Below, piece by piece: positions 10,995 to 34,410 of a DNA stretch of 34,410 nucleotides. This DNA is from a virus (taxonomy: Duplodnaviria > Heunggongvirae > Uroviricota > Caudoviricetes), in the IMG/VR virus record IMGVR_UViG_2579778652_000012, positions 1 through 34,410 of that record; one strand, given 5' to 3'. The notes beneath the pieces are model-generated. The model was not told the origin of the DNA and did no database searches. It was given only the letters and a program-made list of their open reading frames with translations. The position numbers and the translations under genes were made by a program. Every line of letters starts with the position of its first letter. The first letter of the stretch is position 1.

Positions 10995-11180
10995 GTATTT
11001 TTAAGTCGCGAATGCTATCTTTTCGCATCATATTGACCTTTTAATCGTTCAGGCTTATAGTTCCGCCGTCGTAGCAAATTCTGCGACCGGGTTTAGCAGC
11101 CTGAATACTTACGCGGACAACCGCAGATTTCCGATATTGCGGTATTTTTGTGTCCGTAAACCACGTTACGCCCGAATTAT

Positions 11181-11257
11181 GGTGGGGCGTGATGGGGAGG
11201 CTTCGGCCTGCTGGTTTCGTAAGTGCCAGTCTGCTAACCCCGTCACGTCCTGCCACC
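11181..11257 (+). ncRNA. c4: c4-like antisense repressor RNA (immunity I)
   Basis: 77-nt segment closed by GGTGG...CCACC with an internal UUCG-loop hairpin. It carries TCGTAAG (11218-11224) and CTGCTAA (11231-11237), complementary in antiparallel order to TTAGCAG/CTTACG copies both upstream (11092-11098, 11108-11113) and downstream at the icd RBS (11261-11267, 11289-11295). Confidence 0.5.
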
Positions 11258-11306
11258 TGTTTAGCAGCGGGTCGCAGGTTGTTTATCAACTTACGAGGCC
11301 GTAACT

Positions 11307-33000: not shown

Positions 33001-33452
33001 TGACGCGTTACAACCAGGCCGGTGAGTTCAATGTCGGTTATGGGAAGTATAAAACTCCGTATTTCCCATTACAGGAGATGGAAGCCTTCCTCGGTGCGGA
33101 AGGGCGGTCTGAGTTTGTATGCGGTGATTTTGCAGCGGTGATTGAAGCTGCCGGAGAAGGAGATGTCATCTTTTGCGATCCGCCGTATGAACCGCTTCCA
33201 AATACAGAGGGATTCACGAACTATTCCGGTCATGACTTTAAGTTTGAAGAGCAAAAACGCCTGGTGTCTCTGTTGACGGATGCTCATCGTCGAGGTGCAA
33301 AAGTTCTCATTACTAACAGTGGCGCGCCAAACATCAGAGAGCTTTATCATGACAGTGGCTTCAGAGTGGAACCTCTTTTTGCCAGACGTTCTGTGTCTTG
33401 TAAGGGAGACACTCGAGGTGTTGCTCATGACGTTATAGCAATATTGCACTAA
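30006..33452 (+). CDS. dmt: bifunctional DNA methyltransferase Dmt: N-terminal C5-cytosine MTase (intein-interrupted) fused to C-terminal Dam-type N6-adenine MTase
   Basis: GTG start overlapping the hrdC stop, with GGAGAGG 7 nt upstream. C5-MTase motifs: [12 protein letters not shown] (PCQ, split by the intein), [23 protein letters not shown]. Dam-type domain from about nt 32613: [27 protein letters not shown] and catalytic DPPY, collinear with E. coli Dam. Confidence 0.85.
30237..31259 (+). mobile_element. intein (341 codons) with LAGLIDADG-type homing endonuclease domain, inserted in the PCQ motif of the Dmt C5-MTase domain
   Basis: Starts with Cys (CFTAGHMVL, block A-like); TTNDHPFL (block B T-x-x-H); [10 protein letters not shown] and GYLDTDGT (two LAGLIDADG-type motifs); ends ...[10 protein letters not shown] followed by +1 Cys (CQAFSIAG). 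In-frame removal restores [12 protein letters not shown]. Confidence 0.75.
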
Positions 33453-33466
33453 TAAATTTATTAGTG
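33443..33466. promoter_or_regulatory. bipartite (palindromic) C1 operator-like element overlapping the dmt stop codon
   Basis: ATTGCACTAATAAATTT (33443-33459, one mismatch to consensus) overlaps the perfect 20-bp palindrome CACTAATAAATTTATTAGTG (33447-33466), i.e. two inverted overlapping half-operators. Confidence 0.5.
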
Positions 33467-33636
33467 TAATATCGACTCAATGAATCGTGATTTATAGAGC
33501 GATTTAGCTGTTAGCCGCGACAGGCGCGGCGGCAAGTATGGCGGGGTAGTGACTCCTTCCCCATCATGACGCCGAGTTGCCAGGTTGACCATACGCCTAA
33601 GTGGCAACACCGAAGTGCGTTACGAGCTTCCAGTTT

Positions 33637-33662
33637 GCCCATCTTCGGGTGGGCGTTTTTTC
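33637..33662 (+). terminator. rho-independent terminator of the hrdC-dmt operon
   Basis: Hairpin gcccatc-ttcg-ggtgggc followed by a six-T run, about 185 nt after the dmt stop. Confidence 0.6.
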
Positions 33663-34126
33663 AGGGTTTTCGTCATGGTTAGCGACTTTGCGGCGGTTTA
33701 TAAACTGACCATTAAAGTAAATGCAAACGATGATCTGATGATGGTAGCGGCCTAAGAAGCCAGACGCCACGGGGTATGAGTCGTCCCCCGTCAAAAAATC
33801 GACCGCAGAGTGTCCCCGTCTGTGTATTAGGGAACGGGGAGGCACAACAGGTAAGGGCGCTGGTGTGATTAACCAGATGAACGAGAAGGGGCCATCTGTT
33901 GGTCAGCGTCCTTTCCTGTTGCGTCTTCTTTTCAGCGTAACAGCGGTGCTTAACAGCACTTTGGGTACAGTTCCACGAATTTACGGGTATATCCCGTCAT
34001 GCTGAAGGCGCTAATCACGCTGGAAGCCAGGGTTGTGCATCCCCTGTTACCGAATTGCAGCCAGGGCGCGGTGCGCCGAAAAGCATACGGAGGTGGAAGC
34101 CCTCGCCGGAGACGTACCCGGCAAGT

Positions 34127-34202
34127 GATGGTGTAGCTCAGCGGTTAGAGCGGTTGACTGTTAATCAACGGGTCGATGGTTCAAATCCATCCACCATCGC
34201 CA
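34127..34202 (+). tRNA. tRNA-Asn (anticodon GTT)
   Basis: Manual cloverleaf: acceptor GATGGTG/CACCATC, D-arm GCTC-AGCGGTTAG-AGC, anticodon arm GTTGA-CTGTTAA-TCAAC (GTT), T-arm GATGG-TTCAAAT-CCATC, discriminator G, encoded CCA. Confidence 0.85.
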
Positions 34203-34204
34203 AT

Positions 34205-34280
34205 GCCGGTTTAGCTCAGTTGGTAGAGCGCCTGCCTTGTAAGCAGGATGTCAGCGGTTCGAGTCCGTTAATCGGCACCA
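34205..34280 (+). tRNA. tRNA-Thr (anticodon TGT)
   Basis: Manual cloverleaf: acceptor GCCGGTT/AATCGGC (one G-U), D-arm GCTC-AGTTGGTAG-AGC, anticodon arm CCTGC-CTTGTAA-GCAGG (TGT), T-arm AGCGG-TTCGAGT-CCGTT, encoded CCA; 2 nt after tRNA-Asn. Confidence 0.85.
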
Positions 34281-34288
34281 GCACAACA

Positions 34289-34363
34289 GGTAAGGGTATT
34301 TTGCGACGTCGGAGATCGCCGAGCTTGGCAGAGGGTTCGAATCCCTACGAAGTACCCTTACCG
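34289..34363 (+). other. non-canonical tRNA-like element (canonical T-arm inside a long extended stem; possible degenerate third tRNA or structured RNA)
   Basis: Canonical T-loop GGTTCGAATCC at 34333-34343; 10-bp perfect closing stem GGTAAGGGTA/TACCCTTACC, extendable to about 20 bp over 34282-34368; the 25 nt between acceptor-like and T-arm cannot form both D and anticodon arms. Confidence 0.35.
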
Positions 34364-34410
34364 TTGTGATGAATGCGCAGGCTGATGCGCGAAAGACATT
34401 GCAGCTATTG

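What the first reader, a model, noticed from the sequence alone, without database searches (positions are those of the whole stretch)
34282..34368. Third element of the tRNA cluster is not a canonical tRNA: T-arm and acceptor-like stem embedded in a long hairpin
Immediately after tRNA-Asn and tRNA-Thr comes an element with a canonical T-loop (GGTTCGAATCC) and an acceptor-like stem, but only 25 nt where the D and anticodon arms should be. The whole element is enclosed by a roughly 20-bp extended stem (34282-34303 pairing with 34348-34368, one bulge). It could be a degenerate or armless tRNA, a tRNA-like processing signal (RNase P / RNase E substrate), or a decoy for tRNA-targeting factors. P1 is described as encoding three tRNAs, so the third copy here may have diverged.
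Basis: seen in the sequence. Interest (0 to 1): 0.5.

Follow-up and report, generated by a model that had tools for sequence, protein, structure and literature searches.

The report
tRNA-like cap on conserved phage hairpin
The element after the two P1 tRNA genes is not a tRNA but one member of a large, unannotated family of phage-encoded long RNA hairpins; this one carries a conserved tRNA-like tip with no anticodon arm, and its function is still unknown.

Summary
Window 34282-34368 folds into a 21-bp stem with one bulged A. The stem encloses a canonical T arm, a D-arm-like hairpin and a 3-bp mini-hairpin. No tRNA finder or Rfam model calls it a tRNA.

That tRNA (trnI, anticodon CAU) lies about 1.4 kb downstream in P1, beyond the window end.

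The element is a module of a widespread family. More than 70 distinct hairpins in enterobacterial phages share the stem CACAAC-A-GGUAAGAGCAUUG...CAGUGCUCUUUCCGUUGUG and carry hypervariable apical "cargo". The stems covary. G-U outnumbers A-C by 119 to 10, so one strand is the functional one. The hairpins point the same way as the flanking genes.

The P1 cargo recurs nearly unchanged inside quite different, compensated stems in non-P1 phages. It is therefore under selection and is not a decaying pseudogene.

It sits in long untranslated operon leaders, among tRNAs, STnc100-like units and a tmRNA-like tag module.

My best reading is a transcribed structured RNA module: a duplex that acts as a processing and stability scaffold and displays a mimic of the tRNA elbow. 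The mechanism is inferred, not shown.

The parts
34282..34303 (+). 5' arm of the long stem (CACAAC-A-GGUAAGGGUAUUUUG). A34288 is the bulged base that is conserved across the family.
   Evidence: Covariation is shown. The bulged A is present in 63 of 70 family members.
34303..34319 (+). D-arm-like hairpin GCGA/UCGC with the 9-nt loop CGUCGGAGA (GG at 34311-34312). It is an alternative to the mini-hairpin fold, because the two share G34318 and C34319.
   Evidence: It is invariant or nearly so in 26 distinct homologues. Because it does not vary, covariation gives no evidence for or against the pairing.
34318..34329 (+). Mini-hairpin GCC-GAGCUU-GGC (3 bp, 6-nt loop), standing where an anticodon or variable arm would be. 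Its loop is the only variable part of the interior.
   Evidence: RNAalifold predicts it. The G41-Y53 pair is G-U in 14 sequences and G-C in 11. The loop varies among homologues.
34332..34346 (+). T arm: stem AGGG/CCCU with the loop UUCGAAU, which matches the tRNA T-loop consensus.
   Evidence: It is invariant in every homologue found. That is true by construction for the T-arm scan. Besides loci already held, it added one cut P1-type copy (L261), one truncated copy without a T arm (L263) and unrelated GC-rich sequence, so it found no T-arm variant.
34348..34368 (+). 3' arm of the long stem (CGAAGUACCCUUACCGUUGUG).
34369..34395 (+). Conserved tail AUGAAUGCGCAGGCUGAUGCGCG. It is the start of the next, STnc100-like, spacer unit, which runs off the window end.
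   Evidence: In RCS47, GUUGUGAUGA also pairs with a downstream UCAUCACAAC (I9). The spacer unit occurs in 845 of 5426 complete E. coli genomes.
34205..34280 (+). tRNA-Thr (UGU). Its encoded CCA ends one base before the hairpin.
34127..34202 (+). tRNA-Asn (GUU).
33840..33926 (+). Paralogous family hairpin ('HP0') with the same stem motif (CACAACAGGTAAGGGCGCTG / CAGCGTCCTTTCCTGTTGCG) and an unrelated interior.
   Evidence: (I1).
34105..34122 (+). Small hairpin GCCGG-AGACGUAC-CCGGC just upstream of tRNA-Asn. In RCS47 and P7 the same kind of hairpin (GCCGGAGAUCAGCACCGG + CAYCACAAC) precedes other units of the array.
   Evidence: Sequences.

Best explanation
**What it is.** The element is a transcribed, non-coding, structured RNA module in the long untranslated leader of the P1 ban operon. 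That operon runs Pban, DicF-like RNA, tmRNA-like tag module, hairpin HP0, tRNA-Asn, tRNA-Thr, this element, further hairpins, tciABC, tRNA-Ile and ban.

**Anatomy.** A sequence-conserved duplex of about 21 bp, with a bulged A, is shared by a large phage family. On top of it sits a tRNA-like 'elbow' cap. The cap has a D-arm-like loop with GG, a stub where the anticodon arm should be, and a canonical T arm stacked on the stem. It has no anticodon and no free CCA end, so it cannot decode.

**Proposed mechanism (inferred).**
- The duplex serves as punctuation and as a stability scaffold in the polycistronic ncRNA/tRNA transcript.
- The helix begins one base after the CCA of tRNA-Thr. An endonucleolytic cut in it is therefore needed to free the tRNA-Thr 3' end. 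RNase III on the 21-bp duplex is the obvious candidate, possibly followed by RNase P, which measures 12 bp from the T loop.
- The released stable hairpin presents a tRNA-elbow mimic to an unidentified factor that recognises tRNA.

**Shown:** the structure, its conservation, the functional strand, family membership, the genomic contexts, and that it is not a tRNA.

**Inferred:** transcription, the processing enzymes, and the decoy or ligand role.
For: **Structure**
- z = -5.7 for the fold.
- Among 26 distinct homologues of the same interior, the outer stem has 13 of 21 pairs with changes on both sides and 92% of cells paired. 0 of 500 shuffles reach this, and slid controls give 30-53% paired.
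- Across 54 distinct family stems, 11 of 18 pairs have double changes, again 0 of 500.

**Selection on the interior**
- GCGAYGYCGGAGAUCGCC-N8-10-AGAGGGUUCGAAUCCCUAC recurs almost unchanged inside stems of quite different sequence, for example L225, L114 and L230.
- 464 of 5426 complete E. coli genomes carry the P1 form at 95% identity or more.

**A single-stranded sense form**
- Stems hold 119 G-U against 10 A-C appositions. The + strand folds better in 62 of 70 hairpins (p = 2e-10).
- Hairpins are co-oriented with the flanking long ORFs: 80 of 91 downstream and 90 of 109 upstream.

**Context in untranslated, strongly transcribed leaders**
- The P1 Pban leader.
- Directly after cI in lambdoid phages.
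- Between Q and the holin.
- The tRNA region of an Ackermannviridae phage.
- Family hairpins abut tRNA 3' ends in P1, P7 and L010.
- Neighbouring units match the expressed sRNA family STnc100 at 48.8 and 38.3 bits.

**Not coding and not a terminator**
- The RCS47 plp annotation stops short of the element.
- Plp and Upl have no Pfam family.
- PGAP annotates nothing over it.
- There is no U tract.

**From my own knowledge, not tested here**
- The phage T4 tRNA cluster encodes stable non-tRNA RNAs (species 1 and 2), and RNase III cleaves species 1.
- P1 C4 RNA is matured by RNase P.
Against: - No expression or end-mapping data were available, so transcription and processing are inferred from context.
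- The interior helices never vary, so covariation cannot confirm the D-like arm or the T arm. The T arm's invariance is partly an ascertainment effect of the search pattern.
- Two interior folds are mutually exclusive: the 4-bp D-like stem and the GCC/GGY mini-hairpin.
- The acceptor-like helix is buried in a longer duplex and has no single-stranded NCCA. That is unfavourable for direct RNase P cleavage.
- The strong sequence conservation of the stem, beyond what pairing requires, is not explained by RNase III, which has little sequence specificity.
- Strand asymmetry would also fit a single-stranded DNA form.
- No binding partner is identified.
Confidence: 0.55

Rival explanations
1. It is a decaying tRNA pseudogene: a tRNA, possibly a tRNA-Thr duplicate, that lost its anticodon arm and now has no function.
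For: - A local alignment to the adjacent tRNA-Thr spans the D arm, part of the anticodon loop and the T arm (score 11 against a shuffle mean of 7.5, sd 1.5).
- The T loop is canonical.
- P7 lacks this interior and is still a viable phage.
Against: - The interior is nearly invariant in at least 26 distinct contexts, while the enclosing stems change and compensate. That is the opposite of neutral decay.
- It is embedded in a purpose-built family stem shared with non-tRNA interiors.
- The alignment score lies within the range of shuffles (maximum 13).
Confidence: 0.08
2. It is a DNA-level element. The conserved inverted repeats would be recombination or cassette-boundary sites, or single-strand DNA hairpins in the style of integron attC sites or primosome sites, which shuffle interiors between phages. 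The tRNA-like content would be incidental cargo.
For: - Mosaic breakpoints fall at the stems. P1 equals RCS47 minus the stretch between the HP1 and HP2 3' arms, and P7 equals RCS47 minus the stretch between the two 5' arms.
- Hybrid stems exist (L027, L155).
- Stem sequence is conserved beyond what pairing requires.
- A conserved extrahelical A, AAC...GTT ends and a variable centre recall attC sites (from my own knowledge).
- Strand asymmetry also fits a single-stranded DNA form.
Against: - No shared recombinase is apparent across the P1-like, lambdoid and Ackermannviridae hosts of the family (contexts).
- The core-site consensus GTTRRRY is not matched, as read from the sequence.
- Hairpins follow the transcription direction.
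- They sit among tRNAs and sRNA-like units with tRNA-type T loops.
- Ordinary homologous recombination between repeated stems explains the mosaicism without any dedicated site.
Confidence: 0.12
3. It is the tRNA-like (acceptor/T-arm) piece of a phage-encoded, split tmRNA-like system. The messenger piece would be the tag module at 33664-33755, which encodes ANDDLMMVAA.
For: - A 10-codon frame starting at GCA and ending in a hydrophobic ...VAA...AVA...MAA or ...AAA, with one ...VAP exception, is kept at the amino-acid level across diverged modules. Examples are ANDDLMMVAA, ANDEQFLAVA, ANEEMYLAVA and ANDNTFLAVA.
- Rfam tmRNA_permuted matches it at 20-26 bits.
- The beta_tmRNA model aligns end to end from the T arm of this kind of hairpin to the tag in L141 (17.8 bits, E = 0.0016).
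- This interior lies within 330 nt of a tag module in 11 of 19 non-P1 loci.
Against: - All tmRNA matches are far below the gathering scores (47 and 84), and none reaches threshold in 12 loci.
- ARAGORN calls no tmRNA.
- There is no G3-U70. The wobble at the equivalent position is U-G.
- There is no free ACCA end.
- 12 of 14 tag modules in the unbiased sample lack this interior nearby.
- In P1 the two parts are 620 nt apart, with two tRNAs between them.
- The 9-bp complementarity between the P1 tag-module 5' end and the hairpin's 3' arm is about what chance gives, by my estimate.
Confidence: 0.08
4. It is a cis-acting leader element that protects transcription. Dense structure would keep Rho off a long untranslated transcript, or a put-like RNA would make RNA polymerase resistant to terminators.
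For: - The family sits in leaders that must be read through terminators. P1 has an intrinsic terminator at 33636-33662, upstream of the tRNAs and ban.
- Lambdoid hosts carry it right after cI, where nutL or putL would be, with no N gene annotated.
Against: - There is no sequence similarity to the HK022 early (PL/put) region.
- put RNAs are two-hairpin, roughly 70-nt elements (PMC9378689), not a single 21-bp stem.
- No second copy was seen within about 1.3 kb downstream of cro in mEp460.
- A generic anti-Rho role does not explain the invariant tRNA-like interior.
Confidence: 0.1
5. It is the 3' end of the minus-strand gene plp, as annotated in P1, or a bidirectional terminator between convergent operons.
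For: The P1 record annotates plp across the element and 30 nt into tRNA-Thr.
Against: - In RCS47, and in this window's variant, the plp ORF ends before the element.
- Plp and Upl match no Pfam family.
- RefSeq annotation lists no feature there in the 40 records shown out of 473.
- The ORFs overlie covarying hairpins.
- There is no T run on either strand.
Confidence: 0.02

Closest known systems
tRNA (Rfam RF00005)
   Same: It has the canonical T-loop sequence UUCGAAU on a G-C-rich stem, a D-loop-like GG, and a 7-bp acceptor-like helix stacked under the T arm. It lies inside a tRNA gene cluster.
   Different: It has no anticodon arm or anticodon and no variable loop. The acceptor is buried in a 21-bp duplex with no free 5' end and no NCCA. 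ARAGORN and Infernal both reject it.
mascRNA / MALAT1 3' tRNA-like element, and the MHV68 TMER tRNA-like-plus-hairpin units (from my own knowledge)
   Same: These are tRNA-like folds with a poor or absent anticodon arm that serve as RNase P or RNase Z processing signals. They yield small stable RNAs and are placed inside longer transcripts. The mascRNA model gives a weak full-length alignment (14.9 bits, E = 2.2).
   Different: They are eukaryotic or herpesviral. There is no significant sequence match. Those elements have a free acceptor end after cleavage, whereas here a long extra duplex encloses the acceptor.
Bacterial Y RNA YrlA (RF02553)
   Same: A long terminal stem plus a tRNA-like domain with T and D arms and no anticodon. 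YrlA is also found in some phages (PMC4201824).
   Different: The order of the arms differs: in YrlA the T arm follows the 5' strand and the acceptor is a closed hairpin. The Rfam model does not match the element. Its only hit, at 25.6 bits, covers the two real tRNAs.
tmRNA tRNA-like domain, and two-piece (permuted) tmRNAs
   Same: A T arm and acceptor without an anticodon arm. A tmRNA-like tag frame is encoded in the same leader and often lies next to this kind of hairpin in other phages.
   Different: There is no G3-U70, no ACCA end and no pseudoknots. All tmRNA models score far below threshold.
Phage RNase III processing hairpins (T7 early sites, lambda N-leader and sib) and T4 tRNA-cluster stable RNAs species 1 and 2 (from my own knowledge)
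   Same: Duplexes of about 20 bp with conserved irregularities that punctuate polycistronic phage transcripts. They occur as a family of related sites within one genome. In T4, non-tRNA stable RNAs are co-transcribed with the phage tRNAs.
   Different: No cleavage data exist here. The stem sequence is conserved across several phage groups (P1-like, lambdoid, Ackermannviridae), and the apical part is a swappable, sometimes tRNA-like, cargo.
STnc100 / PasD prophage sRNAs (RF02076; PMC13192938)
   Same: They share the same genomic islands: Q-S and tRNA regions of enterobacterial prophages, next to TerB-like genes. The units flanking the hairpins match RF02076.
   Different: The element itself does not match RF02076. 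It has no terminator and no U tail.

Membership tests
tRNA | A cloverleaf with an anticodon arm, recognised by tRNA gene finders. | tested here: not met
   ARAGORN default, pseudogene, intron and mitochondrial modes are all negative. Rfam RF00005 gives no match at E <= 10. Only 27-28 nt stand where the D and anticodon arms need about 40.
tRNA | T arm with the consensus loop UUCRANY. | tested here: met
   AGGG-UUCGAAU-CCCU lies at 34332-34346.
tRNA | A 7-bp acceptor stem with a free 5' end and a 3' discriminator plus CCA. | tested here: not met
   The 7 bp continue into a further 14 bp of duplex. The bases after the stem position are CCCU and they are paired.
P1 'third tRNA' (trnI) | Identity with the annotated third P1 tRNA. 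| tested here: not met
   trnI lies at P1 70933-71008, about 1.4 kb downstream. A local alignment of the element to trnI scores no better than shuffles.
tmRNA (one-piece or permuted) | A tRNA-like domain with G3-U70 and an ACCA end, linked to a tag reading frame. | tested here: not met
   The equivalent pair is U-G or C-G (columns 22-76) and there is no ACCA. ARAGORN calls no tmRNA. Rfam tmRNA models score 18-26 bits against thresholds of 47 to 84. A tag-like frame does exist 620 nt upstream.
YrlA / Y RNA | A match to RF02553, with arm order stem, T arm, closed acceptor, D arm, stem. | tested here: not met
   There is no RF02553 match over the element, and the arm order differs, as read from the sequence.
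Intrinsic terminator | A G+C-rich hairpin followed by a U tract. | tested here: not met
   The scan finds terminators only at 33633-33655 and none at the element on either strand.
RNase III substrate | About two turns (20 bp or more) of mostly regular dsRNA. | tested here: met
   The stem is 21 bp with one bulge.
RNase III substrate | Cleavage by RNase III in vivo or in vitro. | not testable with these tools
   This needs end mapping in rnc+ and rnc- hosts.
HK022 put antiterminator RNA | A two-hairpin RNA of about 70 nt, homologous to putL or putR. | tested here: not met
   There is no motif or BLAST similarity to the HK022 early region. The architecture also differs (PMC9378689).
STnc100 (RF02076) | A match to the covariance model. 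| tested here: not met
   No match covers the element. The matches lie in flanking units of the array (L002 4156-4276 at 38.3 bits; L014 3997-4211 at 48.8 bits).
Phage long-hairpin family defined here | The stem CACAAC-(A)-GGUAAGRGYAUUG / CARUGCYCUUWCCGUUGYG, followed by GUGAAUGC. | tested here: met
   The window element matches it. Model R1 scores it at 107 bits on the + strand and 21 bits on the - strand, although the element is itself a member of the training alignment. The family stems covary.
Protein-coding (plp) | A conserved ORF with family support. | tested here: not met
   The ORF end differs between P1 and RCS47. It has no Pfam family. RefSeq genomes leave it unannotated.

The most novel reading that the evidence does not exclude
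Temperate enterobacterial phages may carry a modular 'RNA display' system. A conserved long-stem scaffold, repeated in arrays within operon leaders, would present interchangeable small structured RNAs. Many of these mimic parts of tRNA or tmRNA: elbow-only tRNA-like caps such as this one, and 10-codon ssrA-like tag modules. They would be swapped between phages by recombination at the stems. Their role would be to manipulate or decoy host tRNA- and ribosome-rescue machinery or tRNA-targeting defences. In the strongest version, this cap and the tag module together form a phage-encoded split tmRNA-like device.
Probability: 0.15. Interest if true: 0.9.

Novelty: new variant of a known kind. Interest (0 to 1): 0.68.

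Why it matters
If the reading holds, a piece of the classic phage P1 genome that is annotated as the tail of a doubtful lipoprotein gene is really a conserved structured RNA.

It would also be the entry point to a large unannotated family of phage RNA modules:

- The P1 form is present in about 9% of complete E. coli genomes.
- The neighbouring spacer unit is present in about 16%.
- Related hairpins occur in Klebsiella, Salmonella, Cronobacter, Citrobacter and Shigella phages.

The family combines a conserved scaffold with hypervariable cargo, some of it tRNA-like. It lies next to phage tRNAs and an ssrA-like tag module. It therefore bears directly on two open questions:

- why phages carry tRNA clusters and how those clusters are processed;
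- whether phages use RNA mimics against tRNA-directed host systems.

It also flags likely mis-annotation of plp and upl.

Tried and rejected
**Ideas tested and rejected**
- **tRNA:** relaxed ARAGORN modes and Rfam at E <= 10 gave nothing credible.
- **Diverged third P1 tRNA:** rejected, because trnI lies elsewhere.
- **Terminator or plp coding sequence:** rejected.
- **Homology to HK022 put RNA:** none found.
- **Long-range pairing of the P1 tag-module 5' end (GGGUUUUCG) with the hairpin's 3' arm:** 9 bp plus a bulge is about what chance gives over 700 nt, and it is absent in non-P1 homologues. I dropped it as evidence.
- **T-loop-like hit at window 1661-1671 (minus strand):** no hairpin surrounds it, so I did not pursue it.

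**Searches that gave little**
- **Literature:** Pas sRNAs (PMC13192938), svsR (PMC12803456), the csRNA catalogue (PMC10690425) and a P1/ban/tRNA search describe neighbouring sRNAs but not this hairpin family. The P1 genome paper is not held in the library.
- **T-arm variants:** Beyond copies already held it returned mostly unrelated GC-rich coding matches, one cut P1-type copy (L261) and one truncated copy (L263), and no T-arm variant.
- **Covariance model R1:** on 100 loci it found mainly other family stems and only two more true homologues.
- **Species-representative genomes:** the scan gave a single hit.
- **Rfam at gathering threshold on 12 loci that hold the interior, nine of them with an adjacent tag module:** only one tRNA was found.
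Full report
**Origin of the window.** The window is a P1-like phage-plasmid. Rfam finds the P1 C4 antisense RNA and its targets at 11055-11260. The last 511 bases are 99.2-99.6% identical to phages RCS47 and P1. The finding lies at the extreme 3' end of the window.

**1.

- ARAGORN and Rfam find tRNA-Asn (34127-34202) and tRNA-Thr (34205-34280), and nothing further.
- From 34282 the sequence reads CACAAC-A-GGTAAGGGTATTTTG ... CGAAGTACCCTTACCGTTGTG. This is a 21-bp stem with A34288 bulged.
- The stem encloses GCGACGTCGGAGATCGCC, GAGCTTGG and AGAGGGTTCGAATCCCTAC.
- The fold energy is -42.7 kcal/mol, z = -5.7, and none of 200 shuffles folds as well.
- The T-loop pattern GGTTCRANTCC occurs four times in the window against 0.17 expected, and three of the four are in this cluster.
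- ARAGORN in pseudogene, intron and mitochondrial modes still finds no tRNA.
- Rfam at E <= 10 gives no tRNA match. The only hits are chance-level ones, such as mascRNA at 14.9 bits.

**2. It is not P1's third tRNA**

The P1 record places the third tRNA (trnI, tRNA-Ile2, anticodon CAU) at 70933-71008. That is after tciABC and just before ban, about 1.4 kb beyond the element. In RCS47 it is about 1.9 kb beyond. The window ends first. The element shows no similarity to trnI above shuffles.

P1 annotates the minus-strand ORF plp across the element and 30 nt into tRNA-Thr. Several results argue against that ORF:

- In RCS47, whose sequence this window follows to its end, plp stops short of the element.
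- Plp and Upl match no Pfam family.
- RefSeq annotation lists no feature over the element in any of the 40 records shown, out of 473 E. coli records that carry it.

**3. The stem is a repeat family**

- The same arms recur in the window at 33840-33926 and several times downstream in RCS47 and P1.
- P7 keeps the stem after tRNA-Thr, with a compensated change (GGGUA/UACCC becomes GGGCA/UGCUC), but carries an unrelated 29-nt interior.
- RCS47 has both hairpins, separated by a 130-nt spacer.
- P1 and P7 look like the two reciprocal deletions between the repeated arms.
- Fragments of the array match lambdoid, P22-like, Sashavirus, SSU5-like and Ackermannviridae phages of Escherichia, Klebsiella, Salmonella, Cronobacter, Citrobacter and Shigella.
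- From these I extracted 70 distinct hairpins with outer stems of 15-27 bp and interiors of 24-93 nt that are mostly unrelated to one another. A crude T-loop-like pattern matched 24 of them.

**4. Structure, strand and context of the family**

- Over 54 distinct stems, 11 of 18 pairs show changes on both sides. No shuffle out of 500 reaches the observed values, and slid registers give 39-54% pairing against 84%.
- G-U appositions outnumber A-C by 119 to 10. The sense strand folds better in 62 of 70 cases, p = 2e-10. The functional form is therefore single-stranded and of one sense.
- The hairpins point the same way as the nearest long ORFs: 80 of 91 downstream and 90 of 109 upstream.
- The contexts are long untranslated leaders:
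  - the P1 Pban leader;
  - directly after the cI repressor in mEp460 and an Stx2a phage;
  - between antiterminator Q and the holin;
  - a 3.3-kb non-coding tRNA region in Klebsiella phage K751.
- Units between the hairpins match the prophage sRNA family STnc100 at 48.8 bits in K751 and 38.3 bits in RCS47.
- The spacer that starts at 34369 is found in 845 of 5426 complete E. coli genomes. It is unannotated in every record listed.

**5. The interior of this hairpin is itself conserved**

- Scanning IMG/VR for its T arm gave 117 loci. Apart from three ordinary tRNAs, all hits have the same interior, GCGAYGYCGGAGAUCGCC-N8-10-YAGAGGGUUCGAAUCCCUAC.
- In non-P1 phages this interior sits in stems of different sequence. 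Examples are CCCACCAAUGAGAGCACUG.../...CAGUGCUCUCAUUCGUGGG and AUUGGCGAGGAUACUG.../...CAGCGUCCUCACCAAU.
- On 26 distinct sequences the outer stem has 13 of 21 pairs with double changes (0 of 500 shuffles). The pair closing the interior runs through U-G, A-U, G-C and C-G.
- The interior helices never vary. They are consistent with a D-like arm, a mini-hairpin and a T arm, but covariation does not prove them.
- The only variable part is the loop of the mini-hairpin.
- RNAalifold prefers the GCC...GGY mini-hairpin plus the T arm. The 4-bp GCGA/UCGC stem is an exclusive alternative.
- The P1 form is in 464 of 5426 complete E. coli genomes, almost all on plasmids, at 95% identity or more, and in 522 PLSDB plasmids.

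**6. What it most likely is and does**

Shown: a conserved, strand-specific, non-coding structure with a tRNA-type T arm and a GG-containing D-like loop, but no anticodon arm and no free CCA end. It sits on a scaffold stem shared by a large phage family, inside transcribed leaders rich in tRNAs and sRNA-like units.

Inferred:

- It is an RNA module.
- The duplex is a processing and stability element. The helix starts one base after the CCA of tRNA-Thr, so an endonucleolytic cut in it is required before exonucleases can finish that tRNA. A regular 21-bp duplex is the classic RNase III substrate.
- The excised hairpin would display a tRNA-elbow mimic. RNase P, TruB, TrmA, the CCA-adding enzyme and tRNA-directed toxins all read that part of a tRNA (from my own knowledge).

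What RNase III does not explain is the sequence conservation of the stem and of its bulged A and U-U mismatch. That points to a sequence-specific partner, or to recombination.

**7. Rivals**

- **Neutral pseudogene.** This is contradicted by the invariance of the interior across changing stems.
- **DNA-level cassette or recombination site.** The breakpoints at the stems and the hybrid stems (L027, L155) keep this alive. However, no common recombinase is evident, and the orientation and content favour RNA.
- **Put-like or anti-Rho leader function.** This fits the locations but not the architecture, and there is no similarity to HK022.
- **Split tmRNA-like device.** This is the most striking rival.
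  - The leader encodes at 33723-33755 a 10-codon frame, ANDDLMMVAA, preceded by a tmRNA-like 5' region.
  - The frame length and the ssrA-like pattern are kept in diverged homologues (ANDEQFLAVA, ANEEMYLAVA, ANDNTFLAVA).
  - Rfam tmRNA models hit it below threshold.
  - This tRNA-like hairpin lies next to such a module in 11 of 19 non-P1 loci.
  - Against it: there is no G3-U70 and no ACCA, no model reaches threshold, and most tag modules lack this interior nearby.

**8. Comparison with known families**

The element works most like the tRNA-like processing or mimic elements (mascRNA, TMERs, YrlA, the tmRNA tRNA-like domain) and like phage RNase III punctuation hairpins. It fails the membership tests for tRNA, tmRNA, YrlA, STnc100, put RNA and terminators. 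Rfam 15 has no family for it, and the papers I could search do not describe it.

I rate it a new variant of a known kind (tRNA-like structured RNA). There is a modest chance that the scaffold-plus-cargo family is something categorically new.

Noticed in passing
window 33664-33755 (tag frame 33723-33755): A tmRNA-like module follows the DicF-like terminator. Its 5' region AGGGUUUUCGUCAUGGUUAGCGACUUUGCGG resembles a tmRNA 5' end. It is followed by a 10-codon frame, GCA AAC GAU ... UAA, encoding ANDDLMMVAA. Homologues in other phages keep the length and an ssrA-like pattern (ANDEQFLAVA, ANEEMYLAVA, ANDNTFLAVA, ANDDLMLMAA). Rfam tmRNA_permuted and beta_tmRNA match only below threshold, and ARAGORN calls nothing.
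   Followed up: partly
window 33840-33926: A second member of the hairpin family ('HP0') has the same stem motif and an unrelated interior. It lies upstream of the tRNAs.
   Followed up: partly
window 34369-34410 and L002 3464-3598: The spacer after the element begins GUGAUGAAUGCGCAGGCUGAUGCGCG. In RCS47 it closes on itself: GUUGUGAUGA pairs with UCAUCACAAC 115 nt downstream. The same GUUGUG can therefore pair either upstream or downstream. The unit is 95-98% identical in lambdoid prophages, occurs in 845 of 5426 E. coli genomes, and is unannotated in every record listed. Related units match STnc100.
   Followed up: partly
L001 3352-3921 (P1 plp and upl); L002 3506-4117: The annotated minus-strand genes plp and upl lie over an array of covarying plus-strand hairpins. 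The plp ORF end differs between P1 and RCS47 and overlaps tRNA-Thr in P1. Neither protein has Pfam support. Both are probably not real genes.
   Followed up: partly
L003 3828-3914 (P7), L005 3764-3850 (D6), L010 2681-2767: ARAGORN calls an 87-nt tRNA-Ser(UGA)-like gene inside the array in P7, D6 and a Salmonella plasmid. It is not listed among the Rfam matches at gathering threshold for P7 and D6, and the D6 record notes that tRNAscan-SE did not call the amino acid.
   Followed up: no
window 33930-34010: Another tRNA-shaped unit has the closing stem UUCAGCGU / GUCAUGCUGAA, with a hairpin ACGGGUAUAUCCCGU next to its 3' strand. The motif recurs in L201. Several family interiors share a related motif, ACGGGUUCAUAUCCCAAUCUAC.
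   Followed up: no
L014 about 2125-2205 (Klebsiella phage K751): A further tRNA-like element without an anticodon arm (GGCGAAG ... AUGGUUCGAUUCCAU ... CUUCGCCA) lies in a 3.3-kb non-coding region. That region also holds a tag module, a family hairpin and an STnc100 match.
   Followed up: no
window 33441-33472 and 33633-33662: The C1 operator palindrome of Pban is followed, after the DicF-like region, by a strong intrinsic terminator that lies upstream of the tRNAs and ban. Transcription must therefore read through it to express them.
   Followed up: no
window 1661-1671, minus strand: An isolated exact T-loop-like 11-mer, GGTTCGATTCC, has no surrounding hairpin or tRNA call. It is probably a chance match inside a coding region.
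   Followed up: partly
L027 5257-5351, L155 2931-3025: These are hybrid hairpins. Their 5' and 3' arms come from different stem variants, so the lower stem no longer pairs. They look like recent recombinants within the interior.
   Followed up: no
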